Shown piece by piece: positions 9,456 through 33,796 of a stretch of DNA of 64,000 bases. The position numbers and the translations under genes were made by a program. A model generated the notes under the pieces. That model saw only the letters and a list, made by a program, of their open reading frames with translations. It did not search any database and was not told where the DNA came from. Numbering within the stretch: the first letter of the stretch is position 1; each line of letters begins with the position of its first letter. This stretch comes from an uncultured SAR86 cluster bacterium (lineage in GTDB: Bacteria; Pseudomonadota; Gammaproteobacteria; Magnimaribacterales; D2472): contig CABXUO010000002.1 of assembly GCA_902515455.1 (NCBI GenBank), positions 3,961 through 67,960 of the forward strand. The letters are read 5' to 3'.

Positions 9456-9456
9456 T

Positions 9457-10373: not shown

Positions 10374-10419
10374 TTTTTAAAGCTCTCTCTTTCTTAATCA
10401 AAATTACTAGGACATTAGC

Positions 10420-13561: not shown

Positions 13562-13562
13562 A

Positions 13563-15406: not shown

Positions 15407-15419
15407 ACAAGGAGAAAAC

Positions 15420-20363: not shown

Positions 20364-21725
20364 ATGATTAAATACTTCAAAAATTTTATGAGTAGGCGAA
20401 CAATATCTGCCAATATTCGAAATAAATTGATGAATACATTTTCCAGTTACGAAATTTTTAAAGATACTAGATTACAATCAGAAGCTTCAAGGCAAAATGA
20501 TCAAAGACCACATGAAGTTTTTTATTTTCATAAAGTTGACGATCCTTATTCACATTTAACCATTCAATCCGTTAAAAAACTTCAAACATCCTATGATATT
20601 AAGCTAAGGCCTGTTTTGGTGGGTAGTGAAAGTTTAGAGGCATTGCATGAACCAACTTTATACAATCATTATTGTCTTCAAGATGTGCAGCGAATTGCAC
20701 CATTCTATGGCATTGAATTTCAAGCAAAATCTTATCCAACTAAAGAGCTTGTCAGCCTGGCTAACTCAATTCTTTCTGCAGTTAATGATCAGAATTTTGT
20801 GGACATAGCTACCCAAGTAAGCTCAGCCTTGTGGCGAGGAGATTCTGTAACACTTGATGAGATTTCTTCCTCCTACTTCGCGACAACTAGCCAAGTTAAA
20901 GAGAAGTTAAAAATTGGGAACGAAATTAGAAATGGTAAAGGTTATTATTTTGGCTCAGCTTATTACTATGAAAAAGAACTTTATTGGGGCCTAGATAGAC
21001 TTCCATATTTAGAGGAAAGACTTACTGAGCTTGGAGCAAGAAAGAAATCTGAAAATAATGAAATATGCTCATTAAATCTTAAGGCTCCTAAAACTTTAGT
21101 TTCTGAGAAAAAAGTTAACCTTTATTACTATCCTTCATTAAACAGTCCTTATACCTTTGTCAGCACAAAAAGAATACGAGAGATTCGAGACGAGTACCCA
21201 ATTAACTTATTCATGAAACCAGTTTTGCCTATGCTCATGAGAAAGATGAATATACCAACTAACAAAGCAAAATATATTCTCTCAGATGCAGCTAGGGAGG
21301 GAAGAAGATATGGAAATGAAATGAAAATCATTCATTCTCCAATTGGAAATCCAGCAAGAAAGTCATATTCTTTGTTTCCTGCAATTGATAAGGCTGGAAA
21401 AGGCTTTGAATATATTGAAGCTTTGCTAAAAGCTTCCTTTCAAGATGGGATAAATATTGGCGATGATAATTTTTTAGAAAATCTGGTAACCAATTTAGAG
21501 CTCGACTGGGAATTGATTAAGAAAGATCTTTATTCAAAGCACTGGCAAAAAATACTTAAAGATAATGTTGAGGACATGTACTCTGGTAATTGCTGGGGTG
21601 TTCCAAGTTTTAAAATTACCGATGAGGACGGCTCAAACTCCTTCTTTACTTGGGGGCAAGATAGGATATGGTTACTTAAAGAAGAGATTTACAAACGTTT
21701 AGAGAAAAGCCATGAAAAATTATAA
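20364..21725 (+). CDS. Fused tandem DsbA-like / 2-hydroxychromene-2-carboxylate isomerase (kappa-GST-like) protein
   Basis: 453 aa. Two halves, each with an N-terminal beta-strand plus (D/S)PY(S/T) (VFYFHKVDDPYSHL; VNLYYYPSLNSPYTFV) and a C-terminal WG.DR motif (LYWGLDRL; FTWGQDRI). No CxxC and no signal peptide. Confidence 0.55.
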   Translation: MIKYFKNFMSRRTISANIRNKLMNTFSSYEIFKDTRLQSEASRQNDQRPHEVFYFHKVDDPYSHLTIQSVKKLQTSYDIKLRPVLVGSESLEALHEPTLYNHYCLQDVQRIAPFYGIEFQAKSYPTKELVSLANSILSAVNDQNFVDIATQVSSALWRGDSVTLDEISSSYFATTSQVKEKLKIGNEIRNGKGYYFGSAYYYEKELYWGLDRLPYLEERLTELGARKKSENNEICSLNLKAPKTLVSEKKVNLYYYPSLNSPYTFVSTKRIREIRDEYPINLFMKPVLPMLMRKMNIPTNKAKYILSDAAREGRRYGNEMKIIHSPIGNPARKSYSLFPAIDKAGKGFEYIEALLKASFQDGINIGDDNFLENLVTNLELDWELIKKDLYSKHWQKILKDNVEDMYSGNCWGVPSFKITDEDGSNSFFTWGQDRIWLLKEEIYKRLEKSHEKL

Positions 21726-23679
21726 TTATTTTTTTTTAGTAATTGTTCTTAGTTTTGTTGCATGTTCAGATCCCAATAATCTTGATCACTTTGCAGACGT
21801 CATTAAAGACCAGTCTTATGAGGATTTTCAGCTTCAATCAAGACCGCCTGCCAATCCTGACAAAAATGCGTATTTTGGTGATTTGCACGTTCATACTGCC
21901 AATTCTCTTGATGCATATACATTCGGAACAATTACATCTCCAACAGATGCATACCGATATGCTCAAGGAGATGCAATTTTACATCCATCAGGTTATCAAA
22001 TTCAGCTATCAAGACCTTTAGATTTTTATGCTGTTACTGATCATGCATATTTTCTGGGCCTTCTTAATGAAGCAGCCGATACCGCTTCAGAGTTTTCGAG
22101 ATATGAGGTTTCACAGCCGCTGCATGACTTAAATAATCCAGCTGGCACAGGCTTTATATCTCTTATGAAAAGAGCCAATCTTTTTAGACCTTTAGCTCGA
22201 TCAATTGTTGAAGGTATTGAAAATGAGGAAATTGACAGATCTCTTGTATCTAAAATTGGAAGAAGTGTATGGCAGGAAACAATTGAAGCTGCAGATAATG
22301 CATATAGACCAGGACTTTTTACTACTTTTGCTGGCTATGAATATACTTCTGGTACTGGTATATATGATAATTATTTACATCGAAATGTTATCTTTCGTAG
22401 CACTCAAAATTTACCCTTAAATCTTTTTTCTAGGGATGATCCTGATCCTGAAAAGCTTTGGGATTGGATGGATAGACTAAGAGAGAATGGAATTGAAAGT
22501 TTAGCGATACCTCATAACACAAACCTTTCTGGAGGGGCTGCATTTTCACTTTATGATTTTAATGGCGGCCCAATAGATCAAGAGTATGTTAAAAAAAGAT
22601 CTTTGAATGAGCCGTTGGTTGAAATTACCCAAACAAAAGGAACTTCTGAAACACATCCTTTCTTATCGAAGAATGATGAGTGGGCAGCTTTTGAAACAAA
22701 ATCTGGTGTTAAAGATGAGGAGCTTGTAAGTAATATTAAAGGTAGCTATGTAAGGGATGCATATTTACGTGGCTTGACTTTAGAGGAAAAAGGCATAGGT
22801 AACCCTTTTAAATTTGGCCTGATTGGATCAAGTGATACCCATGTTTCAGGCTCTTCTGAAAGTGAAGAATTCTTTTTTTCAAAAGCAGGACTATTGGATG
22901 GAGAGCCAGACTTAAGGGGCTCAATTCCTTTCAGTCGATTCTATGGAACATTTCTCAAAATTGCTCAGCCAGAAATGTTTAAAGAAGTAGATGGAAGAAA
23001 CTATTTTGCGGCAAGCACTCGTTTGATTCATTTTTCATCTTCTGGTCTAGCTGGAGTTTGGGCTGAGGAAAATACACGTGAAGCTATTTATGACGCTTTG
23101 CGTCGAAAAGAGACCTTTGCTACAAGCGGCCCACGAATGAAAGTTAGGTTTTTTGCAGGATATAATTTTGAAAATTTTCAGCTTAATGATCTATCTCTGA
23201 TTCAAGATGCTTACAAAACAAGTATGCCCATGGGCGGAACGTTAAATATTGATTCAAATAAAAATCCAACTTTTTTAGTTTGGGCAATAGCCGATCCTCT
23301 GGGTGCTCCATTACAAAGGACTCAAATTGTAAAAGGATGGCTGGAAGATGGAGAGCATAAAGAAAAAGTTTTTGATGTGGCTTGCTCTGATGAAATGAAT
23401 GTTGATCCCAGTAATCATCGTTGTCCTGATAATAATGCATGGGTAGATTTAACTGATTGTTCAATTAGTGCAGATTCAGGATCTAGAGAGATGAAGGTTT
23501 TTTGGCAAGATCCCGAATTTAAAATTAATCAAAAAGCATTTTATTACGCTAGAGTTATTGAAAATCCAGTTTGCAGGTGGTCAACATGGGATTCGATCAG
23601 AAATGGTCAGAAACCAAGATCCGATATATCTTCAACAATACAAGAAAGAGCCTGGTCTTCGCCTATTTGGTTAAAGTGA
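21712..23679 (+). CDS. DUF3604-type protein (PHP-like), probable lipoprotein; copy 2
   Basis: 655 aa. N-terminus FFLVIVLSFVAC is lipobox-like. It carries the same motif set as copy 1 (YFGDLHVHT, DFYAVTDH, GYEYT, HRNVIF, PHNTN, GSSDTH, ERAWSSPIW). 14-nt overlap with the upstream gene. Confidence 0.65.
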   Translation: MKNYNYFFLVIVLSFVACSDPNNLDHFADVIKDQSYEDFQLQSRPPANPDKNAYFGDLHVHTANSLDAYTFGTITSPTDAYRYAQGDAILHPSGYQIQLSRPLDFYAVTDHAYFLGLLNEAADTASEFSRYEVSQPLHDLNNPAGTGFISLMKRANLFRPLARSIVEGIENEEIDRSLVSKIGRSVWQETIEAADNAYRPGLFTTFAGYEYTSGTGIYDNYLHRNVIFRSTQNLPLNLFSRDDPDPEKLWDWMDRLRENGIESLAIPHNTNLSGGAAFSLYDFNGGPIDQEYVKKRSLNEPLVEITQTKGTSETHPFLSKNDEWAAFETKSGVKDEELVSNIKGSYVRDAYLRGLTLEEKGIGNPFKFGLIGSSDTHVSGSSESEEFFFSKAGLLDGEPDLRGSIPFSRFYGTFLKIAQPEMFKEVDGRNYFAASTRLIHFSSSGLAGVWAEENTREAIYDALRRKETFATSGPRMKVRFFAGYNFENFQLNDLSLIQDAYKTSMPMGGTLNIDSNKNPTFLVWAIADPLGAPLQRTQIVKGWLEDGEHKEKVFDVACSDEMNVDPSNHRCPDNNAWVDLTDCSISADSGSREMKVFWQDPEFKINQKAFYYARVIENPVCRWSTWDSIRNGQKPRSDISSTIQERAWSSPIWLK

Positions 23680-23692
23680 AATTATTAACACA

Positions 23693-24496
23693 ATGAGTAA
23701 GTCAAAAAATAATCTTGCACTTGTCACAGGCGCCTCTGACGGAATAGGAGCTGAATTCGTAAAAATTTTAGCAAGTCGAGGATATGATTTAGTTCTTGTT
23801 GCTCGTCGTGAAGAGAAACTTAAGGAGTTAGCAGTTAAATTGACCGATGAATTTGGGATCAGTTGTACTGTTATGGCAACAGATTTATCAGAGCCTAAGG
23901 CAGCTCAAAGTTTGTTCACTCGAGTCGAAGAAAGAGGCTTACAAGTAAATTTTTTAATCAATAATGCAGGACTTCTTCACAATGGATTTTTTACAAAAAT
24001 TAGCCTTGAAGCTCAAGAAAAAATGATTCAAGTTAATGTCATGGCGCTGACCACTTTAACTCATTTATATGCAGACAATATGTCCTCTAATGGAGGCGGG
24101 CATATACTTAATGTCGCTTCACTGGCAGGTTGGATGGCTATTCCAAATCAGAATGTTTACGCTGCATCAAAAGCTTATGTTGTATCTTTTTCTCAAGCAT
24201 TATCAAATGAAATGATTGCTTCAAATAGTGGGGTTAAAGTAACAGCATTATGCCCTGGTTATACAGCTACAAAAATGATGGATAATCCTGACCAAGGTGC
24301 CACTCTTCGCATTCCATCAAGTATGATGATGTCGGCTAAAGATGTTGCTGAGATTGGCATAAAAGCATGTTTTGCAGGCAAAGATATTGTAGTTCCAGGT
24401 CTTGCTAATAAGTTCACCACTATCATCACTCGTCTCTTTTCAAAATCGTTAATAACAAAGATTTTTGGTTCTTTCTACCGTAAGAATATGCACTGA
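23693..24496 (+). CDS. Short-chain dehydrogenase/reductase (classical SDR)
   Basis: Motifs TGASDGIGAE, NNAG and YAASK. Confidence 0.85.
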   Translation: MSKSKNNLALVTGASDGIGAEFVKILASRGYDLVLVARREEKLKELAVKLTDEFGISCTVMATDLSEPKAAQSLFTRVEERGLQVNFLINNAGLLHNGFFTKISLEAQEKMIQVNVMALTTLTHLYADNMSSNGGGHILNVASLAGWMAIPNQNVYAASKAYVVSFSQALSNEMIASNSGVKVTALCPGYTATKMMDNPDQGATLRIPSSMMMSAKDVAEIGIKACFAGKDIVVPGLANKFTTIITRLFSKSLITKIFGSFYRKNMH

Positions 24497-24527
24497 AAAG
24501 TTAGAATTATTTTGCTAAGGTTTTCAT

Positions 24528-25508
24528 ATGAGCGAACAAGCTATTAAAAAAATACTTATAACTGGAGCTAATGGATTCATTGGTGGATCATTGATGAGTT
24601 ATTATCAAAATAATGGTCAAGATGTTGTTGGCGTTGATCTTATTGGTAATGGTGACAATATTATAGAGGGTGATATATCTCAGCCAGAAACAATTAATCA
24701 GCAGCTACAAGAATGCGATGTGATTATTCACACAGCTGCTTTGGTCTCTAATGCAATGCAAGATTCCGATATGTGGCGAGTTAATGTCTTAGCAACCCGT
24801 AACTTAATTCAAGCAGCAAAAGAGCATAAAGTTAGACGTTTCGTTCAAATTTCATCAATAGTCGCTTACGGAAATTCTGCAGAAGGTGAGTTAGATGAAA
24901 CACATCCTGTGCATGCCGATGGTGGAAGCTATGTACTGACAAAACTAGCCTCAGAGCATGTTGTCTTAAGCGAGCAGGCTAATGATGATATAGAAGTAGT
25001 AATCATTCGACCAGGAGATGCATATGGTCCAGGTAGTCGTCCTTGGATTATTGCTCCATTGGAAGCAATTGCTAAAAATCAGTTTATGTTGCCCGAAAAA
25101 GGAGCGGGATTTTTTAGACCTATATATATTGATGATTTAGTTAGAGGTATCGCAATGGCATCGAGCCATCCAGATGCTGATGGCGAAATTTTTAATTTAT
25201 CTTGCGAGGGTTATATGTTTACCAAAGACTATTTCACCCCTCACTACCAATGGTTAGGTAAAAAGCGACCCATGGTAGTTTCGACCAACCTAGCTTTAAA
25301 AATCTCAGCCATAGCATCAAAATTAGCCGATCTTATGGGCAATCTGAATGAAGCCTCGCCATCAACAGTCAAACAGCTTTCAACTAAGAGTTGGTTTTCA
25401 ATTAAAAAAGCAGAACGAGTCCTTGGATGGAGGCCTGAAATTTCATTTGAGGAGGGCATGAAAGTAACTCATGAGTGGGCTCAGAAGGAAGGATTAGTAG
25501 GCAAATAA
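24528..25508 (+). CDS. NAD-dependent epimerase/dehydratase-family (extended SDR, 3-beta-HSD-like) protein
   Basis: 326 aa. Motifs ITGANGFIGGSL and YVLTK (YxxxK). Confidence 0.8.
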   Translation: MSEQAIKKILITGANGFIGGSLMSYYQNNGQDVVGVDLIGNGDNIIEGDISQPETINQQLQECDVIIHTAALVSNAMQDSDMWRVNVLATRNLIQAAKEHKVRRFVQISSIVAYGNSAEGELDETHPVHADGGSYVLTKLASEHVVLSEQANDDIEVVIIRPGDAYGPGSRPWIIAPLEAIAKNQFMLPEKGAGFFRPIYIDDLVRGIAMASSHPDADGEIFNLSCEGYMFTKDYFTPHYQWLGKKRPMVVSTNLALKISAIASKLADLMGNLNEASPSTVKQLSTKSWFSIKKAERVLGWRPEISFEEGMKVTHEWAQKEGLVGK

Positions 25509-25632
25509 TTTACGTAATTACTTTATAAACCTCAATTTATCATTGATTTTTTGATCACGAAAAAGGCTATACTTATGTATATAAGTAGATCTTTATGCGT
25601 TATTAAATTTTAATTATGACTTGGTGAAATCA

Positions 25633-27249
25633 ATGCGTCTGTGGAATGGATGGGGAAATGAAAATAGTGAGCTAACTATGGAGCTTAATGACGGTCTTCG
25701 AGCGTTATTAGAAGCTTTAGTAGGGCCAGGAACTTCACTTAATCAAGCAACCTTAAAAGAGGTAATTTCTAACGTACCCACTTCTCGTCTCGATGACCAT
25801 ACTCTAATTAAAACTGATCCGGAAACACGAGTACGACATGCGCGAGGTCAGAGTTTGCCAGATTGGTTAGATATGCATAGCGGCAATATTGATACATTTC
25901 CTGATGGCGTTGCATTTCCAGAATCTACAGAGCATGTAAGAGAACTTCTTGCTTATGCTAGAGAGAATGACTTAGTTGTGATTCCTTATGGTGGAGGAAC
26001 ATCAGTTGTTGGTCATATAAATCCTATGAAGAGCGACAGACCAATATTAACCATAGATATGGGAAATATGAGTTCTTTATTGAGCATTGATACTGAAAGT
26101 CAACTGGCTACTTTTGGAGCTGGAACTCCAGGTCCTGTCGTGGAAGAAGCTCTGAAAGAACATGGCTATACATTAGGTCACTTTCCACAATCCTGGGAGC
26201 TATCTACTTTAGGGGGATGGGTGGCAAGTCGATCAAGCGGTCAACAATCTCTTCATTATGGCCGCATAGAAAACATGTTTGCTGGGGGAATTATCGAAAC
26301 TATGAATGGCACCATGACAATTCCCACCATCCCAGCATCTTCAGCTGGTCCTGATATTCGTGAGATGATTCTTGGCTCTGAGGGCCGCATTGGTATTATT
26401 ACCGAAGTAACTGTACGGATAACACCTTTGCCTGAGGAAGAAAAATTCCAAGTGATCTTTTTTCCTTCTTGGCAAATTGGTATTAACGCTGCAAGAGAAT
26501 TGATTCAACAGCGAGTTGCATTGTCTATGGTTCGATTAAGTAATCCACTTGAGACAACGAGTCTATTATATATGGGTGCAGGAAGTGATACTAGTGGAGT
26601 GGTTGCACTGGAGAAATCCTTATCTGAAAAGGGTATTGGTGAAGGAAAAGTGATGATGACATTTGGAGTTACTGGCTCAGCTCGTCATTGCGAAACTGCA
26701 TATCAACTTGCAATTGATCATTGTGCTGCCCTCGGTGGTTTTGTAGATCAGTCTGGTCTTGGAGAGAACTGGGCTCATGGTCGATTCCGTGCTCCATATC
26801 TTCGTGACCCCCTTGGTGCAGAGGGATATATAGTAGATACCATGGAGACGGCAGTTGATTGGTCAAAAGTTTCTGAAGCTGCAGAAAATATAGAAGAAGC
26901 AATTCGAACTGCATTAGATGACGAGGGTGAAAGAGTTCATGCTTATACGCATTTATCTCATGTCTATGGCCAGGGATCGAGTATTTACACTACTTATTTG
27001 TTTCGCATAGGTGAAAGTTATGAGTTAGGAAAGAATAGATGGATGAAATTAAAAAAAGCTGGTGCTGATCAGATTGTCGCCCATGGTGGTACCATTAGTC
27101 ATCAGCATGGTGTTGGAAGCGATCACAAGAACTATCTTGCTGAAGAAAAGGGTGAGTTTGGCATCGCTGCAATTCATAGCTTATGCAAGCAATTTGACCC
27201 CTATGGACAAATGAATCCTGGGAAATTACTCCCTGACAATGAGCAGTAA
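25633..27249 (+). CDS. FAD-linked oxidase of the alkyl-dihydroxyacetone-phosphate synthase (AGPS)-like subfamily
   Basis: ATG at 25633; the track's TTG at 25621 is less likely. RLWNGWG opening, [53 protein letters not shown] and [11 protein letters not shown] parallel human AGPS blocks ([71 protein letters not shown]) as I recall them. Confidence 0.7.
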   Translation: [538 protein letters not shown]

Positions 27250-27255
27250 GCTATC

Positions 27256-28848
27256 ATGAATGGATTTACTAATCGTGCGCAACTTCTATCTAAAATGCGC
27301 AATGGTGAGCATTTAGATTGGGATATTATTGTTATTGGTGGGGGTATAACAGGAGCAGGTATTCTTCGTGAAGCACGACGTCAAGGTTACAGGGCGTTGT
27401 TACTAGAGCAACAAGACTTCTCATGGGGTACCTCTAGTCGCTCATCAAAAATGGTTCATGGAGGTTTGAGATATCTTGCTTCAGGCGATATAAAACTTAC
27501 CAAAGAGTCGGTGCAAGAAAGACAGCGCCTATTGAAAGAGGCTCCTGGATTAGTCGATCCAATCTCTTTTTATTTCACTTTTAGAAAGGGTAAATTTCCA
27601 GGTCGCATAGCTATGAAGATTATTTTAACTATTTATGATTTTTTTGCTGGAGCTCAAGATAATAGATTCTGTAACAATGAGGAATTACTAGAGCGTTTTA
27701 AAGGCCTGGATGATAACAAACTTCAGGGAGCAAGCTGTTATACAGATGCTATGGTGGATGATTCGAGATTAGTTCTCCGTGTATTGCAAGACAGTATTGA
27801 TGATGGCGGATATGCGCTAAATTATACTAAAGTAGAAGATCTCTTATTAACAGATGGCCGTGTTTCTGGAGTAAGCATTCAAGATAGAGTTCATTCTGGC
27901 TCAATTCATTTAAATGCCCCAGTTGTTATTAACGCTACTGGAGCTTGGGCAGATAGACTTCGAAATGTTGTTAATAACGAGACTCGAATTAGACCGTTGC
28001 GTGGCAGTCACATTATTATTGCTAAATCTTTATTTCCAATATCCGATGTTATGACTTTTTTGCACGTTGATGACAAGCGAGGTGTTTTTGTTTACCCATG
28101 GGAGGGCACAACAGTTATTGGAACCACAGATATAGATCATAATGAAGATATAGACATTGAGGCTGGCATCTCCGATCAAGAAGTGGATTACTTGCTAAAA
28201 GCTTTTAATAGTCAATTTCCAAGTAATTCACTTAAACGAAGTGATGTGCTATCAACTTGGTCCGGTGTTCGGCCTGTTATTGGTGCAGAAAAAAGTAAAG
28301 ATCCTTCAAAGGAACGACGAGATCATGCTGTTTGGTCTGATAATGGATTAATCACTGTAAGCGGTGGCAAACTTACAACTTTTCGGTTGATCGCATTAGA
28401 TGCTCTGGCTGCGGCTAAGGATAATCTTCCTGCAGCCAAAGAAATTACAGATGACCGTGTATTTTTGACTCCAAAAGTTTCTGCCGAGACCCTATCACCA
28501 AAAAATATTAGCTGGGCTCAACGATTACTTGGAAGATATGGTGAAAAAGCAATTGAACTTTTAAATGAAAGTTCAAAGGAGGAACATGACAATCTTGATG
28601 CAACTGAATTTTCATTAGCTGAATGTAGGTGGGCAATAAAGTATGAGGCAGTAGAACATTTAGATGATTTGATGCTGCGAAGAACTCGTTTAGGCATGTG
28701 TCTACCAAATGGTGGCAGCACTCTTTATCCAGCTTTAAAAGAATTATTTTTATCCAATCACAGCTGGGACGAAGAACGGTGGCAAAAAGAGGTAACTCGT
28801 TATGAAAAAATTTGGAAACAGTATTACAGTCTTCCAAGCAATACTTAA
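27256..28848 (+). CDS. FAD-dependent glycerol-3-phosphate dehydrogenase/oxidase-like protein
   Basis: 530 aa. Motifs VIGGGITGAGILREA and SSRSSKMVHGGLRYL are typical of the GlpD family. Confidence 0.8.
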   Translation: MNGFTNRAQLLSKMRNGEHLDWDIIVIGGGITGAGILREARRQGYRALLLEQQDFSWGTSSRSSKMVHGGLRYLASGDIKLTKESVQERQRLLKEAPGLVDPISFYFTFRKGKFPGRIAMKIILTIYDFFAGAQDNRFCNNEELLERFKGLDDNKLQGASCYTDAMVDDSRLVLRVLQDSIDDGGYALNYTKVEDLLLTDGRVSGVSIQDRVHSGSIHLNAPVVINATGAWADRLRNVVNNETRIRPLRGSHIIIAKSLFPISDVMTFLHVDDKRGVFVYPWEGTTVIGTTDIDHNEDIDIEAGISDQEVDYLLKAFNSQFPSNSLKRSDVLSTWSGVRPVIGAEKSKDPSKERRDHAVWSDNGLITVSGGKLTTFRLIALDALAAAKDNLPAAKEITDDRVFLTPKVSAETLSPKNISWAQRLLGRYGEKAIELLNESSKEEHDNLDATEFSLAECRWAIKYEAVEHLDDLMLRRTRLGMCLPNGGSTLYPALKELFLSNHSWDEERWQKEVTRYEKIWKQYYSLPSNT

Positions 28849-28860
28849 AATGAGGTTATC

Positions 28861-30411
28861 TTGAACGAAAAGTATTTTTTGAGTATTGATAACGGAACTC
28901 AGAGTGTGCGGGCTATAGTTTTTGATATGAATGGTCAGCTTATTGCAAAAAGCAAAGTTGAAATTGAGCCTTATTTTTCTTCTCAGAAAGGATGGGCAGA
29001 ACAGCATGCAGATTATTTTTGGAATTCCCTTTGTCAGGCTTGCCAAGAACTATGGCCAAAATTATCTATCTCAAAAGAATTGATTGCTGCTGTCTCTGTA
29101 ACCACTCAGCGTGCGACGGTAGTAACCATGGGAGAGGATAACCAACCTTTGCGACCTGCTATTAGCTGGTTGGATCAGCGAAAAGTAGATACTAAGCCTA
29201 AATTAGGAAAAGTAGAATCAGCCATAATGAGCCTAGTTAGAGCCAAGTCATTGGTAGATTTGATGCATGCAGAGGCCGAAGCCAATTGGATTGAGCAAAA
29301 TGAGCCTGAAATCTGGAAGCAAGTTCATAAATTTTTACTTCTTTCTGGTTATCACAACTATAAACTTACAGGCCAATATAATGATGCTATTGCAAGTACT
29401 GTCGGATTTTTTCCATTTGAATACAAGACACAACAATGGGCAGATCAAAATGATTGGAAATGGCGAGCTATGCCAATTAGATCAGAAATGTTATCCGAGG
29501 TCTTTCCAGCAGGATCTGTCCTTGGTGAGATTACCGAAGTAGCGGCTGAACAAACTGGAATACCACAAGGACTACCTTTGATTGCTAGTGGCTCAGATAA
29601 AGCATGCGAGGTTTTGGGAACTGGATGCATTAATGATGAGACAGGCAGCTTGAGCTATGGCAGCCTTGCTACATTGAATATCACTTCTGATAAATATCTT
29701 GAAGCGATACCTTTTTATCCTGCATATCCGGGAGTAATACCCAATACATTTAATATTGAGATGATGATTCAAAGAGGGTATTGGATGGTGAGCTGGTTTA
29801 AAAAAGAATTTGGACTTCAAGAAGATCAACTAGCAAAAGAAAAAAATGTCCAACCTGAAACTCTATTTGATAAATTACTAGCCAAAGTCCCACCAGGTTC
29901 TGATGGATTAATGCTGCAACCTTATTGGTCGCCTTCTAATGGAGATGGTCCTGAAACAAGAGGGGCAATTATTGGATTTAATGAAGAGCACACTAGGGCA
30001 CACCTTTATCGCGCAATGATCGAGGGGTTAACTTATGCACTAAGGGAGAGCAAAGAACTTTTGGAAAAACGAAGTAAAAAAATTATTTCTCGCATAGTTG
30101 TATCAGGCGGAGGCTCTCAAAGTGATGAAGTCATGCAGATAACCGCTGATATTTTTGGTATGACCGTTTTTCGTCCACATACATTCGAAACATCATCCCT
30201 TGGAGCTGCTATTGCAAGTGCTGTTGGAATTGGTCTATACCCAAATTTTACTTCCGCAGTTGAAAAAATGACTCACGAAGGAGACAGGTTTGATCCTATA
30301 GCAGCCAATTCAGAAATTTATAATGATCTATACCATAAGGTTTATAAAAAAATGTATGGCAACCTTAAACCAAGCTATGAGGCAATATGGTCAATCACAA
30401 ACAGAACTTAA
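28861..30411 (+). CDS. FGGY-family carbohydrate/polyol kinase
   Basis: 516 aa with a TTG start. N-terminal LSIDNGTQSVRAIVFD and C-terminal VSGGGSQSDEVMQITADIFG. Confidence 0.8.
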   Translation: MNEKYFLSIDNGTQSVRAIVFDMNGQLIAKSKVEIEPYFSSQKGWAEQHADYFWNSLCQACQELWPKLSISKELIAAVSVTTQRATVVTMGEDNQPLRPAISWLDQRKVDTKPKLGKVESAIMSLVRAKSLVDLMHAEAEANWIEQNEPEIWKQVHKFLLLSGYHNYKLTGQYNDAIASTVGFFPFEYKTQQWADQNDWKWRAMPIRSEMLSEVFPAGSVLGEITEVAAEQTGIPQGLPLIASGSDKACEVLGTGCINDETGSLSYGSLATLNITSDKYLEAIPFYPAYPGVIPNTFNIEMMIQRGYWMVSWFKKEFGLQEDQLAKEKNVQPETLFDKLLAKVPPGSDGLMLQPYWSPSNGDGPETRGAIIGFNEEHTRAHLYRAMIEGLTYALRESKELLEKRSKKIISRIVVSGGGSQSDEVMQITADIFGMTVFRPHTFETSSLGAAIASAVGIGLYPNFTSAVEKMTHEGDRFDPIAANSEIYNDLYHKVYKKMYGNLKPSYEAIWSITNRT

Positions 30412-30431
30412 CTTTATTTGTGGAGCAATTG

Positions 30432-31256
30432 ATGGATACCTTTAAAAACAAAAAAGCGCTTGTAACTGGTGCGTCTATTGGAATCGGTAAAGCCATAGCT
30501 ATTGATCTTGCAACAAAAGGTGCTGAATTAATTTTGACTGCTCGGTCTCAAGAGCAATTAGAATCTTTGGCAAATGCAATAGAAGAAAAGGGTGGTAAAG
30601 CGCATGTCTTTTTAGAGGATTTAGCTCAACCGGGCTCAGCGGCGAGGCTACATCAGCAGATCACAGCTGCAAATCTTCAAGTTGATTTGTTAATTAATAA
30701 TGCAGGTTATGGGAGATGGGGTCAATTTAGAGATTTTCAAAGAGATGATTACGCAAATATGATTCAATTGAATATTACATCGCTGACAGATCTTTGCCAT
30801 TTATTTTTACCTGCTATGGTTGAAAAAGGTGAAGGAGGAGTTATCAATATTGGTTCATCTGCATCATTTTTACCAGTTCCCTATGCAAGTGTTTATTCTT
30901 CAACAAAAGCATACGTTTTAATGTTTTCTGAAGCTTTACGATATGAGTATTCTGACAGTAACGTTCGAATTATGGCCTCTTGCCCTGGAGCAACCGATTC
31001 AAATTTTAGAAATGTCGCAACGGAGAAATCATCTGATCGACTCAAACAAAGAATAAGTAAATTAAAAGGTGAGGGTCAAGTTGGAGATACTTGTGAAAGA
31101 GTTTCCAAAGAGACTTTAGATGCTTTTTTAAAAAATAAGCATTATGTAGTGCCTGGTAAAGGAAATTTTAAGTTCGCATTTTTACCAAGAATTTTATCCA
31201 GAGCAAAGGTATTAAAATTTACAGGCGACGCTTTCAAAAAGCACACCTTGAGTTAG
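30432..31256 (+). CDS. Short-chain dehydrogenase/reductase (classical SDR)
   Basis: ATG at 30432 (MDTFKNKKALVTGASIGIGKA). The track's start at 30387 overlaps the kinase. NNAG and YSSTK are present. Confidence 0.8.
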   Translation: MDTFKNKKALVTGASIGIGKAIAIDLATKGAELILTARSQEQLESLANAIEEKGGKAHVFLEDLAQPGSAARLHQQITAANLQVDLLINNAGYGRWGQFRDFQRDDYANMIQLNITSLTDLCHLFLPAMVEKGEGGVINIGSSASFLPVPYASVYSSTKAYVLMFSEALRYEYSDSNVRIMASCPGATDSNFRNVATEKSSDRLKQRISKLKGEGQVGDTCERVSKETLDAFLKNKHYVVPGKGNFKFAFLPRILSRAKVLKFTGDAFKKHTLS

Positions 31257-31295
31257 TTTTACCTGAATAGATTTTTTTTAGTAGCATAGGATCTA

Positions 31296-32828
31296 ATGGC
31301 AATTAAAAACAGACCAGAATTTGAAAAATTTCTTCAACGATTAGAAAAAAGCTCTGACGAATTTCGCGCATCTTCAAAAGAAAAAAGGCATGCTAAAAAA
31401 TATAGAACTGCTCGAGAAAACCTTGCTCACTTAATAGATAAAGATAGTTTTTTGGAGTTTGGTCAATTTGCGGTTGCTGCTCAAAGAAGTCGAAGGGATT
31501 ACGAAGAGCTTCAAGATAAAACTAACGCTGATGGAATCATTACAGGCTTTTGTTCTGTTAATTCAGAATTAGTTGGTCCAGAAAACTCTCAAGCTGTTGC
31601 TATTGTTTATGATTACTCTGTTTTAGCTGGTACCCAAGGGGCCTTTCATCATATGAAATTAGATCGAATATGTGATCAGGCTAAAAAGTTTGAACTACCA
31701 ATTATAATTTTTACTGAAGGCGGTGGTGGCAGACCTGGAGATACTGATGTGCTTATTCAGATAGCAGGATTACACATACCTTCTTTTTCCTCATGGGCTC
31801 AATTAAGTGGCACCTCATTAAAAATTGCTGTAAATAATGGTTATTGTTTTGCTGGTAATGCTGCATTATTTGGATGTTCTGATTTTCGAATTGCAACAAA
31901 GACCTCATGGATTGGTATGGCCGGCCCTGCAATGATTGAAGGAGGCGGTCTTGGTGTATTTGAACCAACTGACATTGGTCCTGTTTCGGTTCATGAACAG
32001 AATGGAGTGGTAGATTATGTTGCTGAAAATGAAGAGGAAGCAACTGAAATTGCAAAACAAATCCTTTCTTATTTTCAAGGTCCTGTAAGCAAGTTCTCTA
32101 TTAATGATCAAGAAATTCTTCGAAACATCATGCCAGAAGACAGACGATATACCTATGAGGTGCGGGACATAATTAAAACGGTTGCTGACATTGATAGTTT
32201 TTTAGAACTTAAAAGAAATTTTGGTCAAAGCATTGTTACCGGATTTATTAGAATAGAGGGTAAGCCTTTTGCTCTTCTTGCAAGTGATTGTCAAAAACTT
32301 GGTGGTGCAATTGACTCAGAGTCTGCAGAAAAAGCCGCAGATTTTATTTCTATTTGTAATGATCATGATCTTCCAATTCTTGTTCTTGCTGACACTCCAG
32401 GATTTATGGTTGGCCCAGCAAGCGAGGAAGGAGGGGCAGTTAGAAGAATGGCCTCTTTATTTAAACAAGGAGCAAATATTGAGGTTCCACTTGTAGCAAT
32501 TTTTCTTCGAAAAGGATATGGATTAGGAGCCCAGGCTTTGGTTGGAGGAAGTCTGCATAATCCTGTCTATACTGCAGCATGGCCAACTGGTGAATTTGGA
32601 GGCATGGGAATAGAGGGTGCTGTAAAACTTGGATATAGAAAGGAGCTAGAAAGTATAGAAGATCCTAATGAGCGAAAGGAACTATTTGAAAAGCTAGTTT
32701 CGAAAATGTATGAAGTTGGTCAAGCAATTGAAGCTGCATCTTTTTTAGAAATCGATGCTGTTATTGATCCTGCAGAAACAAGAACGATAGTGCTAAAAGC
32801 TTTTAAATCTGCATTAGGAAATTTGTGA
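31296..32828 (+). CDS. Acyl-CoA carboxylase carboxyltransferase-domain protein (PccB/MccB-like), no partner subunits in window
   Basis: 510 aa. Two carboxyltransferase halves with IIFTEGGGGRPGD and LADTPGFMVGP blocks. Confidence 0.75.
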   Translation: MAIKNRPEFEKFLQRLEKSSDEFRASSKEKRHAKKYRTARENLAHLIDKDSFLEFGQFAVAAQRSRRDYEELQDKTNADGIITGFCSVNSELVGPENSQAVAIVYDYSVLAGTQGAFHHMKLDRICDQAKKFELPIIIFTEGGGGRPGDTDVLIQIAGLHIPSFSSWAQLSGTSLKIAVNNGYCFAGNAALFGCSDFRIATKTSWIGMAGPAMIEGGGLGVFEPTDIGPVSVHEQNGVVDYVAENEEEATEIAKQILSYFQGPVSKFSINDQEILRNIMPEDRRYTYEVRDIIKTVADIDSFLELKRNFGQSIVTGFIRIEGKPFALLASDCQKLGGAIDSESAEKAADFISICNDHDLPILVLADTPGFMVGPASEEGGAVRRMASLFKQGANIEVPLVAIFLRKGYGLGAQALVGGSLHNPVYTAAWPTGEFGGMGIEGAVKLGYRKELESIEDPNERKELFEKLVSKMYEVGQAIEAASFLEIDAVIDPAETRTIVLKAFKSALGNL

Positions 32829-33796
32829 AAAAAATTCTAATAACTCTTTTGATTATTTTTTTGCTTATATGGCTTCCATATTTTACTCAAACATACAAAC
32901 TTAAAACATTAGCAGCGTCTGACCTTCCCTCAAAGGGCGCATGGGTATCTTTGGAAAAAGGTAATCTTTATTATCGTTGGTATTATCCTGACGCAAAAGT
33001 AATGAACAATGAAACAGTTGTTCTTGTGCATGGGTTTTCAACCCCTCATTTTGTATGGGATGGAATGAAAGGATTTTTATTAGATGCGGGATACTCGGTC
33101 CTTGTGTTTGATCATTATGGTCGCGGATATTCTGAGAGACCAAAAATTAAATATACCAAGGATGTTTTTGTTCAATCCCTTAGAGGATTGCTTGATTCAC
33201 AAAAAATTCCCGGGCAAGTGCATCTAGTTGGTTACTCAATGGGTGGACCCATAGTAGGTCACTTTGCTAGCGAATTTCCTGACATGGTTAAAAGTATTTC
33301 TTTGATTGCTCCTGCAGGTTTTATGGCTGAAAACCCAACAAAGGATTGGTGGATTATGAAACCTCTGATAGGAGAGTGGTTCCTAAATGTTTTTGGCTCA
33401 AGACTGGTCTTTCAGGGCAATGAGAATAAAAATGAGCCTCCAAGAGAAGATCCTCTAGCATTATCAAAAAAAGAGTTTATTGAAAAAGCAGGAGTGCAAA
33501 TGCAATATAAAGGCTTCATTGATGCTTTATTATCAACTGCTCGCAATTTTAATTTATTTAGTACTCAGGAAATGTTTGTTGATGTAGGAAATTTAAACAA
33601 GCCAATCCTGACTATTTGGGGAACTGAGGATGAAGTTGTTCCATTTATAGGAAGTAAAGAGCTGATGATTTATATTCCTCAATCTGAGTTACTAGTGTTG
33701 GAAGGAGGCAAGCATGATATTACTTATGCTGAACCTTCAATAGTTGGTGCAGCTATTAGAGATTTTCTAATGAGTCAGTCTAAGGCTGAAGCTTAG
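32825..33796 (+). CDS. Alpha/beta-fold hydrolase with N-terminal membrane anchor
   Basis: GTG start overlapping the upstream stop. N-terminal ILITLLIIFLLIWL, VLVHGF, the nucleophile elbow GYSMGG, and late GGKHD. Confidence 0.75.
   Translation: MKKILITLLIIFLLIWLPYFTQTYKLKTLAASDLPSKGAWVSLEKGNLYYRWYYPDAKVMNNETVVLVHGFSTPHFVWDGMKGFLLDAGYSVLVFDHYGRGYSERPKIKYTKDVFVQSLRGLLDSQKIPGQVHLVGYSMGGPIVGHFASEFPDMVKSISLIAPAGFMAENPTKDWWIMKPLIGEWFLNVFGSRLVFQGNENKNEPPREDPLALSKKEFIEKAGVQMQYKGFIDALLSTARNFNLFSTQEMFVDVGNLNKPILTIWGTEDEVVPFIGSKELMIYIPQSELLVLEGGKHDITYAEPSIVGAAIRDFLMSQSKAEA

What the first reader, a model, noticed from the sequence alone, without database searches (positions are those of the whole stretch)
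23693..31256. AGPS-like flavoenzyme clustered with GlpD-like dehydrogenase, FGGY kinase and SDRs: candidate bacterial ether-lipid (alkyl-DHAP) module
Seen: the 25633-27249 product aligns block by block with human alkyl-DHAP synthase as I recall it (WNGWG opening, GGGTSV, STLGGWV..R.SG, GPDI....GSEG..G.ITE). The HHH loop appears as HQH. It is followed at junctions of 6, 12 and 20 nt by a GlpD-like FAD dehydrogenase, an FGGY kinase and a classical SDR. It is preceded, across a 124-nt gap, by another SDR and an extended SDR. Established: eukaryotic ether-lipid synthesis uses DHAP, an acyltransferase, AGPS, a fatty-acyl-CoA reductase (extended-SDR fold) and an SDR-type acyl/alkyl-DHAP reductase. 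Inference: kinase plus GlpD could supply DHAP from glycerol, the AGPS-like enzyme would form alkyl-DHAP, and an SDR would reduce it. No DHAP acyltransferase is visible, and the two upstream SDRs may instead belong to the DUF3604 chain. Ether lipids are not an expected trait of a marine gammaproteobacterium.
Basis: partly seen in the sequence, partly recalled or inferred. Interest (0 to 1): 0.65.

Follow-up and report, generated by a model that had tools for sequence, protein, structure and literature searches.

The report
Conserved AGPS-like, GlpD-like, kinase operon
A marine SAR86-like bacterium carries a three-gene set found across many bacterial phyla (an ether-lipid-synthase-like flavoenzyme, a glycerol-3-phosphate-dehydrogenase-like enzyme and a sugar-type kinase); it is already described but uncharacterised in Pseudomonas aeruginosa, and it more likely processes ready-made glycerol ethers or esters than builds ether lipids from glycerol.

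Summary
The flavoenzyme (25633-27249) belongs to the AGPS group, not the GlcD/D-lactate group, by sequence and by predicted fold. It keeps Arg419, Arg515, Tyr578, His615 and His617; His616 is Gln.

Only three genes form a conserved unit: AGPS-like, GlpD-like, then FGGY kinase. The pair recurs in 64 of 80 loci, and with the kinase in 48, across at least ten phyla. It matches the published P. aeruginosa PA3026-PA3024 operon. That paper proposed the same glycerol-to-alkyl-DHAP route in silico and found no deletion phenotype, on glycerol or otherwise.

Several results weaken the de novo synthesis reading:
- The enzyme lies in a bacterial 'HQH' clade apart from characterised AGPS.
- No acyltransferase or fatty-acyl reductase lies nearby in any locus.
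- The kinase is not GlpK.
- AGPS-like::GlpD-like fusion proteins suggest the two enzymes act in consecutive steps.
- The recurring neighbours are FadR-type or AraC regulators, with occasional lipases.
- The SDRs are not conserved partners.

My best guess (0.35) is phosphorylation, C2 oxidation and flavin-dependent cleavage or exchange of a 1-O-substituted glycerol, most likely as catabolism. The function is unproven.

The parts
25633..27249 (+). AGPS-like FAD enzyme (538 aa) of the 'HQH' bacterial clade. First gene of the conserved triad.
   Evidence: Pfam FAD_binding_4 + FAD-oxidase_C. PDB phmmer gives AGPS 1e-68 and 3e-61 against D-LDH/GlcD at 1e-22. All top 37 Foldseek hits are AGPS. Arg419, Arg515, Tyr578, His615 and His617 are kept; His616 is Gln. 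Relatives of 45-88% identity occur in 76 genome loci.
27256..28848 (+). GlpD-like FAD dehydrogenase (530 aa), a dedicated paralogue. Second gene of the triad; starts 6 nt after the AGPS-like stop.
   Evidence: Pfam DAO + DAO_C. The best NCBIfam G3P dehydrogenase model scores 286 bits, below its cut-off of 360. E. coli GlpD residues R54, H233, T270, R317, R332 and K354 are kept in 61-66 of the 67 aligned triad-type sequences (66 loci plus the window). It has its own subfamily: 39-55% identity within it, about 30% to E. coli GlpD. It lies next to the AGPS-like gene in 64 loci.
28861..30411 (+). FGGY-family kinase (516 aa) that is not a GlpK orthologue. Third gene of the triad; starts 12 nt after the GlpD-like stop.
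   Evidence: Pfam FGGY_N + FGGY_C. It is below every NCBIfam cut-off: XylB 254 against 380, GlpK 172 against 590. GlpK residues D10, R83, W103 and D245 are kept; E84 becomes G/A/S, Y135 becomes F/L/M and F270 is deleted in 49/49. It follows the GlpD-like gene in 48 loci.
25509..25632 (.). AT-rich 124-nt spacer upstream of the triad. In related loci (L002-L004) a divergent AraC (GliR-type) regulator gene occupies this position; it is absent here.
   Evidence: Sequence read. The consensus scan shows no strong promoter or terminator. The AraC gene lies between the extended SDR and the AGPS-like gene in L002-L004.
23693..24496 (+). Classical SDR (SDR1). Lineage-level companion, not part of the conserved unit.
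   Evidence: Pfam adh_short. The best NCBIfam hit, mycolate-reductase-type SDR, is below its cut-off (197 against 380). It lies upstream of the triad only in L001-L004.
24528..25508 (+). Extended SDR (326 aa; HpnA/OleD/3-beta-HSD-like). Lineage-level companion. Too short for, and scoring far below, any curated reductase model.
   Evidence: Pfam Epimerase and a partial NAD_binding_4 hit. NCBIfam HpnA scores 105 against 368, OleD 91-94 against 580. Found only in L001-L004.
30432..31256 (+). Classical SDR (SDR2). Follows the kinase directly in this window only.
   Evidence: Pfam adh_short. ATG at 30432. In L001 a membrane protein, a MerR regulator and an aldo-keto reductase lie between the kinase and this gene. 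It is absent after the kinase in L003.
31296..32828 (+). Carboxyltransferase-domain protein (acyl-CoA carboxylase beta-like) with no biotin partner nearby. Context only.
   Evidence: Pfam Carboxyl_trans. A close relative (91% identity) occurs only in L001; L010 and L080 hold only distant carboxyltransferases, away from the triad.
32825..33796 (+). Alpha/beta-fold hydrolase (possible esterase or lipase). Context only.
   Evidence: Pfam Abhydrolase_1. Shared with L001 only. Unrelated alpha/beta hydrolases follow the triad in 3 other loci.
21712..23679 (+). DUF3604 lipoprotein, probably outside the cytoplasm, with a GDLHVHT motif. Context; found near the triad in a few marine lineages.
   Evidence: Pfam DUF3604, 734 bits. 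Lipoprotein-like N-terminus and motif. DUF3604 also lies next to the triad in L001, L004 and L005.
18174..20264 (-). Second DUF3604 protein, divergently transcribed. Context.
   Evidence: Pfam DUF3604, 746 bits. Signal-like N-terminus and GDLHVHT motif.

Best explanation
The core is a self-contained three-enzyme module of the P. aeruginosa PA3026-PA3024 type. I propose that it acts on a glycerol that already carries a substituent on O-1.

Proposed steps (all inferred):
1. The FGGY kinase phosphorylates the free primary hydroxyl.
2. The GlpD-like flavoenzyme oxidises C2 and passes the electrons to the quinone pool, giving a 1-O-substituted dihydroxyacetone phosphate.
3. The AGPS-like enzyme uses AGPS chemistry on that ketone: the Tyr578 equivalent removes a C1 proton, a covalent flavin N5 adduct forms, and the O-1 substituent is expelled.
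4. The intermediate is captured by water or another nucleophile, giving DHAP for glycolysis plus the released alcohol (or acid).

The most likely substrate is a 1-O-alkylglycerol or lyso-ether lipid left after phospholipases and lipases have stripped ether lipids. Lipases cannot cleave that ether bond. This would make the module a catabolic or salvage route. Where the kinase is missing (FadR-type loci), the input would already be phosphorylated.

Shown here: the family assignments, the retained catalytic residues, the conservation of the unit, the fusion proteins and the regulators. Inferred: the substrate, the direction of flow and every reaction step.
For: - Conservation: AGPS-like then GlpD-like, in the same order and on the same strand, in 64 loci, followed by the FGGY gene in 48. 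These span Gamma-, Beta- and Alphaproteobacteria, Chloroflexota, Vulcanimicrobiota, Bacillota, Desulfobacterota, Myxococcota, Actinomycetota and Verrucomicrobiota.
- Fusions: AGPS-like::GlpD-like proteins of about 1100 aa exist (P0170, P0192, P0198, P0208). For P0170 and P0198, the two tested by BLASTP, the C-terminal half aligns end to end with the window's GlpD-like protein (35%, 1e-80; 30%, 6e-68). A fusion suggests consecutive steps or a complex, which the canonical route with an acyltransferase in between does not predict.
- Direction of the GlpD step: GlpD-type enzymes are quinone-linked and run in the oxidising direction (established knowledge). The GlpD-like enzyme should therefore feed the AGPS-like enzyme rather than reduce its product. 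Its phosphate and substrate residues are conserved.
- AGPS catalytic residues are conserved in 63-66 of 66 clade members, so AGPS-type flavin chemistry is plausibly retained.
- The kinase is not GlpK. The GlpK residues E84, Y135 and F270 are replaced by small or hydrophobic residues or deleted.
- None of the 64 loci has an acyltransferase or fatty-acyl reductase nearby. The recurring neighbours are regulators: FadR-type (GntR + FadR_C, the acyl-CoA-sensing family) co-directional in 11 loci, and AraC in 10-11.
- Lipolytic and uptake hints: a GDSL lipase and an acyl-CoA thioesterase in Rhodoferax; alpha/beta hydrolases; YegS-type lipid kinases in Pseudomonas; a TonB receptor in L003.
- In P. aeruginosa the operon is co-activated with phospholipase C PlcA, and its deletion does not affect growth on glycerol (PMC8151288).
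- The carriers are mostly versatile heterotrophs (Pseudomonas, Marinobacter, Massilia, Psychrobacter, SAR86/SAR92). To my knowledge these are not known to make ether lipids.
- A myxobacterial MAG (Archangium, L053) has this type, and myxobacteria use a different AGPS operon for synthesis.
Against: - Nothing here is biochemical.
- To my knowledge no AGPS has been shown to run as an ether hydrolase.
- The retained residues are exactly those needed for the normal acyl-to-alkyl exchange.
- Characterised FGGY kinases act on soluble sugars and polyols, not lipids. Pseudomonas loci carry a separate lipid kinase.
- No alcohol or aldehyde dehydrogenase or transporter is consistently linked to the module.
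- BIOLOG plates gave no phenotype for the P. aeruginosa deletion, although alkylglycerols are, to my knowledge, not on those plates.
- Some carrier lineages (Desulfobacterota, Myxococcota, and possibly Chloroflexota) do contain ether lipids, which fits synthesis equally well.
- The tree is a rough neighbour-joining tree without support values. A published study found little phylogenetic signal in AGPS.
- The GlpD and GlpK contact residues were recalled from memory. One remembered GlpD position was wrong.
Confidence: 0.35

Rival explanations
1. De novo ether-lipid precursor synthesis from glycerol. The kinase makes G3P, the GlpD-like enzyme makes DHAP, an acyltransferase encoded elsewhere makes acyl-DHAP, the AGPS-like enzyme exchanges acyl for a fatty alcohol, and an SDR reduces alkyl-DHAP.
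For: - AGPS-group membership and retained catalytic residues.
- GlpD substrate residues are conserved.
- In this window SDRs of a lipid-ketoreductase-like type flank the triad.
- The same scheme is published in silico (PMC8151288). That paper reports that some carriers outside Pseudomonas lack other glpK/glpD homologues.
Against: - No acyltransferase or FAR lies in the scanned part of the window (1-47.7 kb) or in any of 64 loci. True AGPS systems link or fuse them (MXAN_1674-1676; the PlsC::AGPS fusion P0209).
- The kinase fails the GlpK model and lacks glycerol-contact residues.
- DHAP needs no dedicated supply.
- The AGPS-like::GlpD-like fusions skip the acylation step.
- The SDRs are not conserved with the triad.
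- The P. aeruginosa deletion has no glycerol phenotype.
- The enzyme's clade is separate from characterised AGPS.
Confidence: 0.15
2. Ether-lipid synthesis by editing an existing acyl lipid. Monoacylglycerol is phosphorylated (or lysophosphatidate is taken directly), the GlpD-like enzyme oxidises 1-acyl-G3P to 1-acyl-DHAP, and the AGPS-like enzyme swaps the acyl group for a fatty alcohol. This bypasses any DHAP acyltransferase.
For: - It explains the fusion proteins and the absence of an acyltransferase.
- It uses unchanged AGPS chemistry.
- FadR-type control by acyl-CoA fits lipid remodelling.
- To my knowledge, several carriers (Marinobacter, Psychrobacter and other Moraxellaceae) handle fatty alcohols for wax esters or alkane use.
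- Some carrier phyla contain ether lipids.
Against: - It needs an alkyl-DHAP reductase and a fatty-alcohol source, and neither is conserved nearby.
- To my knowledge ether lipids are not reported from well-studied carriers such as P. aeruginosa.
- Co-regulation with a secreted phospholipase C, and the lipases near some loci, look catabolic.
Confidence: 0.15
3. The same phosphorylate, oxidise and cleave logic applied to a water-soluble glyceryl ether or ester rather than a long-chain one. An example is the deacylated backbone of ether-linked betaine lipids (glyceryl-trimethylhomoserine from DGTS-type lipids of algae and phosphate-starved bacteria).
For: - FGGY kinases normally take soluble polyols, and this one keeps the R83/W103/D245 core.
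- The ocean-surface lineages that carry the triad (SAR86, SAR92, Porticoccaceae, Halieaceae) live among phytoplankton, which to my knowledge are rich in betaine lipids.
- A BCCT betaine/choline-type transporter lies directly upstream in one Psychrobacter locus.
Against: - The BCCT linkage is seen once and is absent from the sister Psychrobacter locus.
- FadR-type regulators point to acyl chains.
- The predicted fold matches AGPS over its whole length. In AGPS that fold includes a fatty-alcohol tunnel (to my knowledge), but tunnel residues could not be examined here.
Confidence: 0.1
4. The AGPS-like protein is an ordinary FAD dehydrogenase or oxidase of the VAO superfamily, for example acting on a hydroxy acid or alcohol produced downstream of DHAP. 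The triad would then be a variant polyol or glycerol catabolic operon unrelated to ether bonds.
For: - AGPS-like genes of about 30% identity on plasmids sit with acyl-CoA synthetase or CoA-transferase and gamma-carbonic anhydrase genes, so the wider family is functionally mixed.
- FGGY plus GlpD-like pairs serve polyol catabolism elsewhere (erythritol EryA/EryB, from my own knowledge).
- No member of the HQH clade has been assayed.
Against: - The residues specific to AGPS covalent catalysis are near-invariant in the clade.
- Sequence and fold are far closer to AGPS than to D-LDH or GlcD.
- Regulators and occasional neighbours point to lipids, not sugars, and no sugar transporter or isomerase is linked.
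Confidence: 0.15

Closest known systems
P. aeruginosa PA3026-PA3024 operon with the divergent AraC regulator GliR (PA3027) (Kotecka et al. 2021, PMC8151288)
   Same: The gene content and order are the same: AGPS-like FAD oxidoreductase, GlpD homologue, FGGY kinase. Pseudomonas loci in my set (L019-L025, L074) are 53-55%, 46-49% and 52-54% identical to the three window proteins. Most carry the divergent AraC gene and three carry a YegS-type lipid kinase downstream, as described for PA3027 and PA3023.
   Different: The window has no AraC regulator; a 124-nt spacer is in its place. It has no YegS-type kinase. It is embedded among SDR, carboxyltransferase, hydrolase and DUF3604 genes. The PAO1 sequences themselves were not compared here. 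The function of the Pseudomonas operon is also unknown: there is no deletion phenotype, and the proposed pathway is in silico only.
Eukaryotic and myxobacterial AGPS (EC 2.5.1.26), e.g. guinea-pig 4BBY, Dictyostelium 2UUU, M. xanthus MXAN_1676
   Same: The fold, including the N-terminal extension, is the same (TM 0.80-0.86). So is the WNGWG start, and Arg419, Arg515, Tyr578, His615 and His617 are kept.
   Different: Identity is about 30% over aligned columns. His616 is Gln in 59/63 clade members. The clade is separate in a rough tree. The partner gene is a GlpD-like dehydrogenase, not a FAR and DHAP acyltransferase as in MXAN_1674-1676 or fused as in P0209.
Alkylglycerol monooxygenase (AGMO), described as the only known enzyme that cleaves 1-O-alkylglycerols (PMC7911779, PMC9192799)
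   Same: Under my preferred reading the net outcome would be the same: removal of the alkyl chain from a glyceryl ether.
   Different: There is no relationship in sequence or chemistry. AGMO is a membrane-bound, tetrahydrobiopterin- and O2-dependent hydroxylase (to my knowledge). The route proposed here activates the ether by phosphorylation and C2 oxidation, then uses non-redox flavin chemistry. This is purely an analogy of outcome.
Erythritol catabolism EryA (FGGY kinase) plus EryB (GlpD-like polyol-phosphate dehydrogenase) of Brucella and rhizobia (from my own knowledge)
   Same: An FGGY kinase is followed by a GlpD-family FAD dehydrogenase acting on the phosphorylated polyol.
   Different: That pathway has no AGPS-like enzyme. 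Here the linked regulators are FadR- or AraC-type, and no sugar-phosphate isomerases are linked. No sequence comparison with EryA or EryB was made.

Membership tests
AGPS (alkylglycerone-phosphate synthase, EC 2.5.1.26) | VAO/PCMH-type FAD fold with the AGPS-specific N-terminal extension; closer to AGPS than to other FAD-linked oxidases | tested here: met
   phmmer gives 1e-68 and 3e-61 to AGPS against 1e-22 to D-LDH/GlcD. All top 37 Foldseek hits are AGPS, TM 0.74-0.86, against 0.69 for D-LDH.
AGPS (alkylglycerone-phosphate synthase, EC 2.5.1.26) | Catalytic and disease-linked residues Arg419, Arg515, Tyr578 and His617 (guinea-pig numbering; roles recalled from the AGPS structural literature) | tested here: met
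   All are present in the window protein. In the clade: R419 66/66, R515 64/64, Y578 63/63, H617 63/63.
AGPS (alkylglycerone-phosphate synthase, EC 2.5.1.26) | Intact HHH loop (His615-His616-His617) | tested here: not met
   The window has HQH. His616 is Gln in 59 of 63 clade members, whereas both eukaryotic AGPS, the fusion proteins and most other bacterial clades have HHH. The functional consequence is unknown.
AGPS (alkylglycerone-phosphate synthase, EC 2.5.1.26) | Groups with experimentally characterised AGPS in a phylogeny | tested here: not met
   In a neighbour-joining tree of 193 sequences, the window and all triad loci form one clade. Guinea-pig and Dictyostelium AGPS group elsewhere with the PlsC::AGPS fusion. 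The tree has no support values. M. xanthus AGPS was not available.
AGPS (alkylglycerone-phosphate synthase, EC 2.5.1.26) | Works with a DHAP acyltransferase and a fatty-acyl-CoA reductase (clustered or fused in bacteria and protists) | tested here: not met
   Neither was found among the window genes scanned, 1-47.7 kb. Neither appears among the neighbour families recurring within 10 kb, or among the two ORFs on each side (within 1.5 kb), of the triad in 64 loci. Genes elsewhere in the genomes could not be searched.
AGPS (alkylglycerone-phosphate synthase, EC 2.5.1.26) | Catalyses acyl-DHAP + fatty alcohol -> alkyl-DHAP + fatty acid; the organism contains 1-O-alkyl lipids | not testable with these tools
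   This needs an enzyme assay and lipidomics.
PA3026-PA3024 (GliR-regulated) operon type | AGPS-like, GlpD-like and FGGY genes in this order on one strand with short junctions | tested here: met
   Junctions are 6 and 12 nt. The pair has the same order in 64 loci, with the kinase in 48, including eight Pseudomonas loci.
PA3026-PA3024 (GliR-regulated) operon type | Divergent AraC-family regulator (GliR) upstream | tested here: not met
   No regulator lies in the 124-nt spacer. The AraC gene is present in 17 related loci (one of them downstream of the triad), including L002-L004. Other lineages use a FadR-type regulator instead.
GlpD (aerobic sn-glycerol-3-phosphate dehydrogenase) | Reaches the curated equivalog score | tested here: not met
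   The best G3P dehydrogenase model, NF008899, scores 285.9 bits against a cut-off of 360. Identity to E. coli GlpD is about 30%, against 39-55% within the triad subfamily.
GlpD (aerobic sn-glycerol-3-phosphate dehydrogenase) | Domain architecture and the substrate/phosphate-contact residues of E. coli GlpD (residue list recalled from memory) | tested here: met
   DAO + DAO_C. R54, H233, T270, R317, R332 and K354 are conserved in 61-66 of the 67 aligned sequences (66 loci plus the window). One remembered position (259) was wrong and is disregarded.
GlpK (glycerol kinase) | Reaches the curated equivalog score and keeps the six glycerol-contact residues (list recalled from memory) | tested here: not met
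   TIGR01311 scores 171.8 bits against a cut-off of 590. R83, W103 and D245 are kept, but E84 becomes G/A/S, Y135 becomes F/L/M and F270 is deleted in 49/49.
Acyl/alkyl-DHAP reductase (SDR type) as partner of the triad | An SDR consistently linked to the AGPS-like gene | tested here: not met
   SDR2 follows the kinase directly only in the window. In L001, the only other locus with a close SDR2, three genes lie between them. SDR1 accompanies the triad only in L001-L004. SDRs are found upstream in only 2 of the other 60 loci. The substrates of the SDRs were not tested.

The most novel reading that the evidence does not exclude
The triad is a bacterial pathway for breaking the ether bond of 1-O-alkylglycerols and lyso-ether lipids without oxygen or pterin. 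A kinase and a GlpD-like dehydrogenase convert the glyceryl ether into alkyl-DHAP. An AGPS-like flavoenzyme then runs AGPS chemistry towards cleavage, releasing fatty alcohol and DHAP. That would be a second, mechanistically unrelated answer to a reaction for which alkylglycerol monooxygenase is described as the only known enzyme. It would be present in abundant ocean bacteria (SAR86, SAR92) and in Pseudomonas.
Probability: 0.25. Interest if true: 0.8.

Novelty: new member of a known kind. Interest (0 to 1): 0.5.

Why it matters
AGPS-like genes in bacterial genomes and metagenomes are routinely read as a capacity to make ether lipids; JGI, for example, names these proteins 'alkyldihydroxyacetonephosphate synthase'. 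This analysis shows that a large, widespread clade of them is tied to a dedicated GlpD paralogue and an unusual FGGY kinase, not to the acyltransferase and reductase of ether-lipid synthesis. The clade is abundant in ocean surface bacteria. Such annotations should therefore not be taken as evidence of ether-lipid production.

If the module instead degrades glyceryl ethers, it would fill a gap in how bacteria recycle ether lipids from animals, protists and other microbes. It would also give the P. aeruginosa GliR regulon, which includes a secreted phospholipase C, a concrete role in using host lipids. Either way, the question can be tested with three soluble enzymes and existing Pseudomonas mutants.

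Tried and rejected
- Literature: nine searches found no experimental function for this gene set. The only direct paper is the GliR study. One search was wasted on the noisy term 'GliR'. Two incidental mentions of PA3025 and PA3026 in omics tables were uninformative. I could not retrieve the AGPS structure papers, so residue roles are from memory.
- D-lactate/glycolate oxidase identity for the flavoenzyme: rejected on sequence and fold.
- SDR2, the carboxyltransferase and the hydrolase as part of the unit: rejected, because L001 has three genes in between and other loci lack them.
They accompany the triad in L002 and L003 with no DUF3604 detected beside them, though a DUF3604-like gene precedes them in L004 and in the window.
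- Promoter and terminator scans of 20-34.2 kb gave fewer hits than shuffled sequence, and none was informative.
- The plasmid search returned only relatives of at most 37% identity; the two contexts opened (about 30% identity) were unrelated to the triad.
- Genes downstream of the pair in loci without a kinase are unrelated to one another.

Full report
**What is in the window.** The window has about 36% G+C. It comes from a marine gammaproteobacterium. The closest genome locus (L001, 88% protein identity) is a MAG labelled SAR86, and relatives of 73-81% identity are labelled Porticoccaceae.

A run of ten + strand genes spans 20364-33796:
- a DsbA-like protein
- a DUF3604 protein
- a classical SDR (SDR1)
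- an extended SDR
- a FAD-linked oxidase
- a GlpD-like dehydrogenase
- an FGGY kinase
- a second SDR (SDR2)
- a carboxyltransferase-domain protein
- an alpha/beta hydrolase

A second DUF3604 gene is transcribed divergently upstream. The valyl-tRNA synthetase gene converges downstream.

**The flavoenzyme is AGPS-like, but from a separate bacterial clade.** By sequence it matches Dictyostelium and guinea-pig AGPS at 1.3e-68 and 3.3e-61. D-lactate dehydrogenase, glycolate oxidase and D-2-hydroxyglutarate dehydrogenase score 1e-22 or worse. An AlphaFold model (pLDDT 86.5) finds only AGPS structures in the first 37 Foldseek hits (TM 0.74-0.86). There is then a clear step down to D-LDH (TM 0.69).

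In guinea-pig numbering, Arg419, Arg515, Tyr578, His615 and His617 are present, and they are near-invariant in 66 relatives. His616 is Gln in 59 of 63.

A neighbour-joining tree of 193 sequences gives a more qualified picture. The window protein and all its gene-cluster relatives form one clade marked by HQH. The two characterised eukaryotic AGPS group elsewhere, together with a PlsC-acyltransferase::AGPS fusion protein. The tree is rough and has no support values. A recent study also reported weak phylogenetic signal for AGPS.

The wider family is functionally mixed. Plasmid-borne relatives of about 30% identity sit with CoA-ligase or CoA-transferase and gamma-carbonic anhydrase genes.

**The conserved unit has three genes.** I scanned one genome per species with an alignment of the family and kept 80 loci.
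- The AGPS-like gene is followed directly by the GlpD-like gene, on the same strand, in 64 loci.
- The FGGY kinase follows in 48 loci.
- The carriers are Gamma-, Beta- and Alphaproteobacteria, Chloroflexota, Vulcanimicrobiota, Bacillota, Desulfobacterota, Myxococcota, Actinomycetota and Verrucomicrobiota; a Methylomirabilota contig was too short to show the neighbouring genes.
- Streptomyces and Mycolicibacter relatives at 37-39% identity have a GlpD-like gene in divergent orientation.

The other genes of the finding are not part of this unit. SDR2, the carboxyltransferase and the hydrolase recur only in L001. There a membrane protein, a MerR regulator and an aldo-keto reductase separate them from the kinase. 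In L003 the gene after the kinase is on the other strand. SDR1 and the extended SDR lie upstream of the triad only in the four SAR86/SAR92/Porticoccaceae loci. In three of these a divergent AraC gene lies between them and the triad.

**The unit is already in the literature.** The arrangement is a divergent AraC regulator, then an AGPS-like oxidoreductase, a GlpD homologue and an FGGY kinase, followed in Pseudomonas by a YegS-type lipid kinase. This matches the P. aeruginosa PA3027/PA3026-PA3024/PA3023 cluster (PMC8151288).

In that study GliR (PA3027) strongly activated the operon, together with the phospholipase C gene plcA and PA3342. Deleting the operon had no effect on growth in rich medium, on glycerol or citrate, or on BIOLOG plates. 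I found no later functional work.

**Why I doubt de novo synthesis from glycerol.**
1. The kinase is not a glycerol kinase by the curated model (172 bits against a cut-off of 590; its best hit, XylB, is also below cut-off). It keeps D10, R83, W103 and D245 of E. coli GlpK. In all 49 members, however, it has lost E84 (now G/A/S), Y135 (now F/L/M) and F270 (deleted).
2. The GlpD-like protein is a dedicated paralogue, about 30% identical to E. coli GlpD against 39-55% within its own subfamily. It keeps R54, H233, T270, R317, R332 and K354, so a phosphorylated glycerol-type substrate is likely.
3. The representative library contains AGPS-like::GlpD-like fusion proteins of about 1100 aa. For the two tested by BLASTP (P0170, P0198), the C-terminal half aligns end to end with the window's GlpD-like protein. 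Fusions usually join consecutive steps, yet the canonical route places an acyltransferase between these two enzymes.
4. No acyltransferase or fatty-acyl reductase occurs in the scanned part of the window (1-47.7 kb) or beside the triad in any locus. Biosynthetic AGPS is clustered or fused with them.
5. DHAP is a central metabolite and needs no private supply line (established knowledge).

**What the neighbours say.** A census of the two ORFs on each side (within 1.5 kb) of the triad in 60 loci found only regulators recurring. A FadR-type regulator (GntR + FadR_C, the acyl-CoA-sensing family) lies co-directionally upstream in 11 loci, often overlapping the AGPS-like start. These are mostly Chloroflexota, Bacillota, Myxococcota, Acidimicrobiia and Desulfobacterota, and most of them lack the kinase. 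An AraC regulator with an Arabinose_bd domain lies in 10-11 loci.

Occasional neighbours are lipid-related:
- YegS-type lipid kinases (3 loci) and alpha/beta hydrolases (3 loci, plus the window)
- a GDSL lipase and an acyl-CoA thioesterase in Rhodoferax
- a TonB-dependent receptor in L003
- DUF3604 proteins in the window, L001, L004 and L005

In the window the DUF3604 proteins have signal or lipoprotein N-termini and a GDLHVHT metal-site-like motif. The glycerolipid context is therefore well supported. The direction of flow is not.

**Most likely mechanism.** I propose that the module handles a glycerol that already carries a group on O-1. The kinase phosphorylates the free primary hydroxyl. 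The GlpD-like enzyme oxidises C2; this enzyme family is quinone-linked and runs in the oxidising direction. The AGPS-like enzyme then uses its conserved Tyr/His/Arg machinery and flavin N5 to expel the O-1 substituent from the resulting ketone.

With water as the incoming nucleophile, the products are DHAP and a free alcohol. That amounts to ether cleavage by the reverse of the second half-reaction of AGPS. The likeliest substrates are 1-O-alkylglycerols and lyso-ether lipids left after phospholipase C and lipases have acted on ether lipids. This would fit four observations:
- the co-regulation with plcA in P. aeruginosa
- the FadR-type control
- the catabolic lifestyle of most carriers
- the presence of this type in a myxobacterial MAG, when myxobacteria use a different AGPS operon for synthesis

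Every reaction step is an inference. I put this reading at 0.35.

The rivals are:
- ether synthesis by editing lysophosphatidate through acyl-DHAP (0.15)
- the same logic applied to soluble glyceryl ethers, such as deacylated betaine lipids (0.10)
- an ordinary dehydrogenase role (0.15)

**Verdict.** The locus is a new member of a known but functionally unassigned operon type. It is widespread and abundant in the ocean: single protein clusters hold hundreds to more than a thousand member sequences. It is commonly annotated as ether-lipid synthesis on thin grounds. Interest is moderate (0.5). The finding itself is not new. The comparative evidence, however, points to a different function that can be tested, and that function would be notable if confirmed.

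Noticed in passing
window 18174-20264 (-) and 21712-23679 (+); also L001, L004:122-2431, L005:119-865: Two DUF3604 proteins flank a DsbA-like gene. Both have signal or lipoprotein N-termini and a GDLHVHT motif that resembles a PHP-type metal site. DUF3604 genes recur next to the triad in four marine gammaproteobacterial lineages, but nowhere else in the 80 loci. No solved structure matches by sequence (best E 0.32).
   Followed up: partly
window 20364-21725 (+): In this 453-aa protein only residues 256-442 match a known domain (DSBA-like thioredoxin). The N-terminal 255 residues have no Pfam or NCBIfam match.
   Followed up: no
window 3152-16388 (+): A long co-directional run of genes that looks like an island for unusual or hydrophobic substrates: an AMP-binding acyl-CoA-synthetase-like protein, a saccharopine-dehydrogenase-like protein, two nitronate-monooxygenase-family proteins, three glutathione S-transferases, DUF2855, a sulfatase, a metallo-beta-lactamase-fold hydrolase and an SDR. 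A sulfatase also follows the triad in L005.
   Followed up: no
proteins P0170, P0192, P0198, P0208 and P0209 (representative library): Natural fusion proteins: AGPS-like::GlpD-like (about 1100 aa, all with an intact HHH loop) and PlsC-like acyltransferase::AGPS (801 aa). P0225 and P0263 appear to be tandem double FAD-oxidase proteins (about 950-990 aa).
   Followed up: partly
L084 (Moraxella osloensis plasmid p4) and L085 (Roseovarius sp. THAF8 plasmid): AGPS-like genes of about 30% identity on small mobilizable plasmids lie next to a gamma-carbonic anhydrase and an acyl-CoA synthetase or CaiB-type CoA-transferase. In Moraxella the set is bracketed by Tn3-family transposases. This is a different, also uncharacterised, use of the fold.
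   Followed up: partly
L001:14791-16611: In L001, the closest relative, a small membrane protein, a MerR-type regulator and an aldo-keto reductase lie between the kinase and SDR2. These three genes are absent from the window, so there has been a recent insertion or deletion at this junction.
   Followed up: yes
alignment A3 (ORFs downstream of the triad); probably L059:17696-18634 (-): One downstream neighbour matches the TMEM164 family (E 3.7e-57), whose mammalian member is, to my knowledge, linked to ether-phospholipid acyl remodelling. This is a single occurrence, and the locus was guessed from its nine hydrophobic segments, not confirmed.
   Followed up: no
window 31296-32828 (+): A stand-alone carboxyltransferase-domain protein (methylmalonyl-CoA decarboxylase alpha / acyl-CoA carboxylase beta-like, far below the curated cut-off) has no biotin carboxylase or carrier protein nearby. 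It overlaps the start of the alpha/beta hydrolase gene by 4 nt.
   Followed up: no
L028:7618-9468 (+): A BCCT betaine/carnitine/choline transporter lies directly upstream of the triad in one Psychrobacter locus. In the sister locus L034, guaA occupies that position.
   Followed up: no
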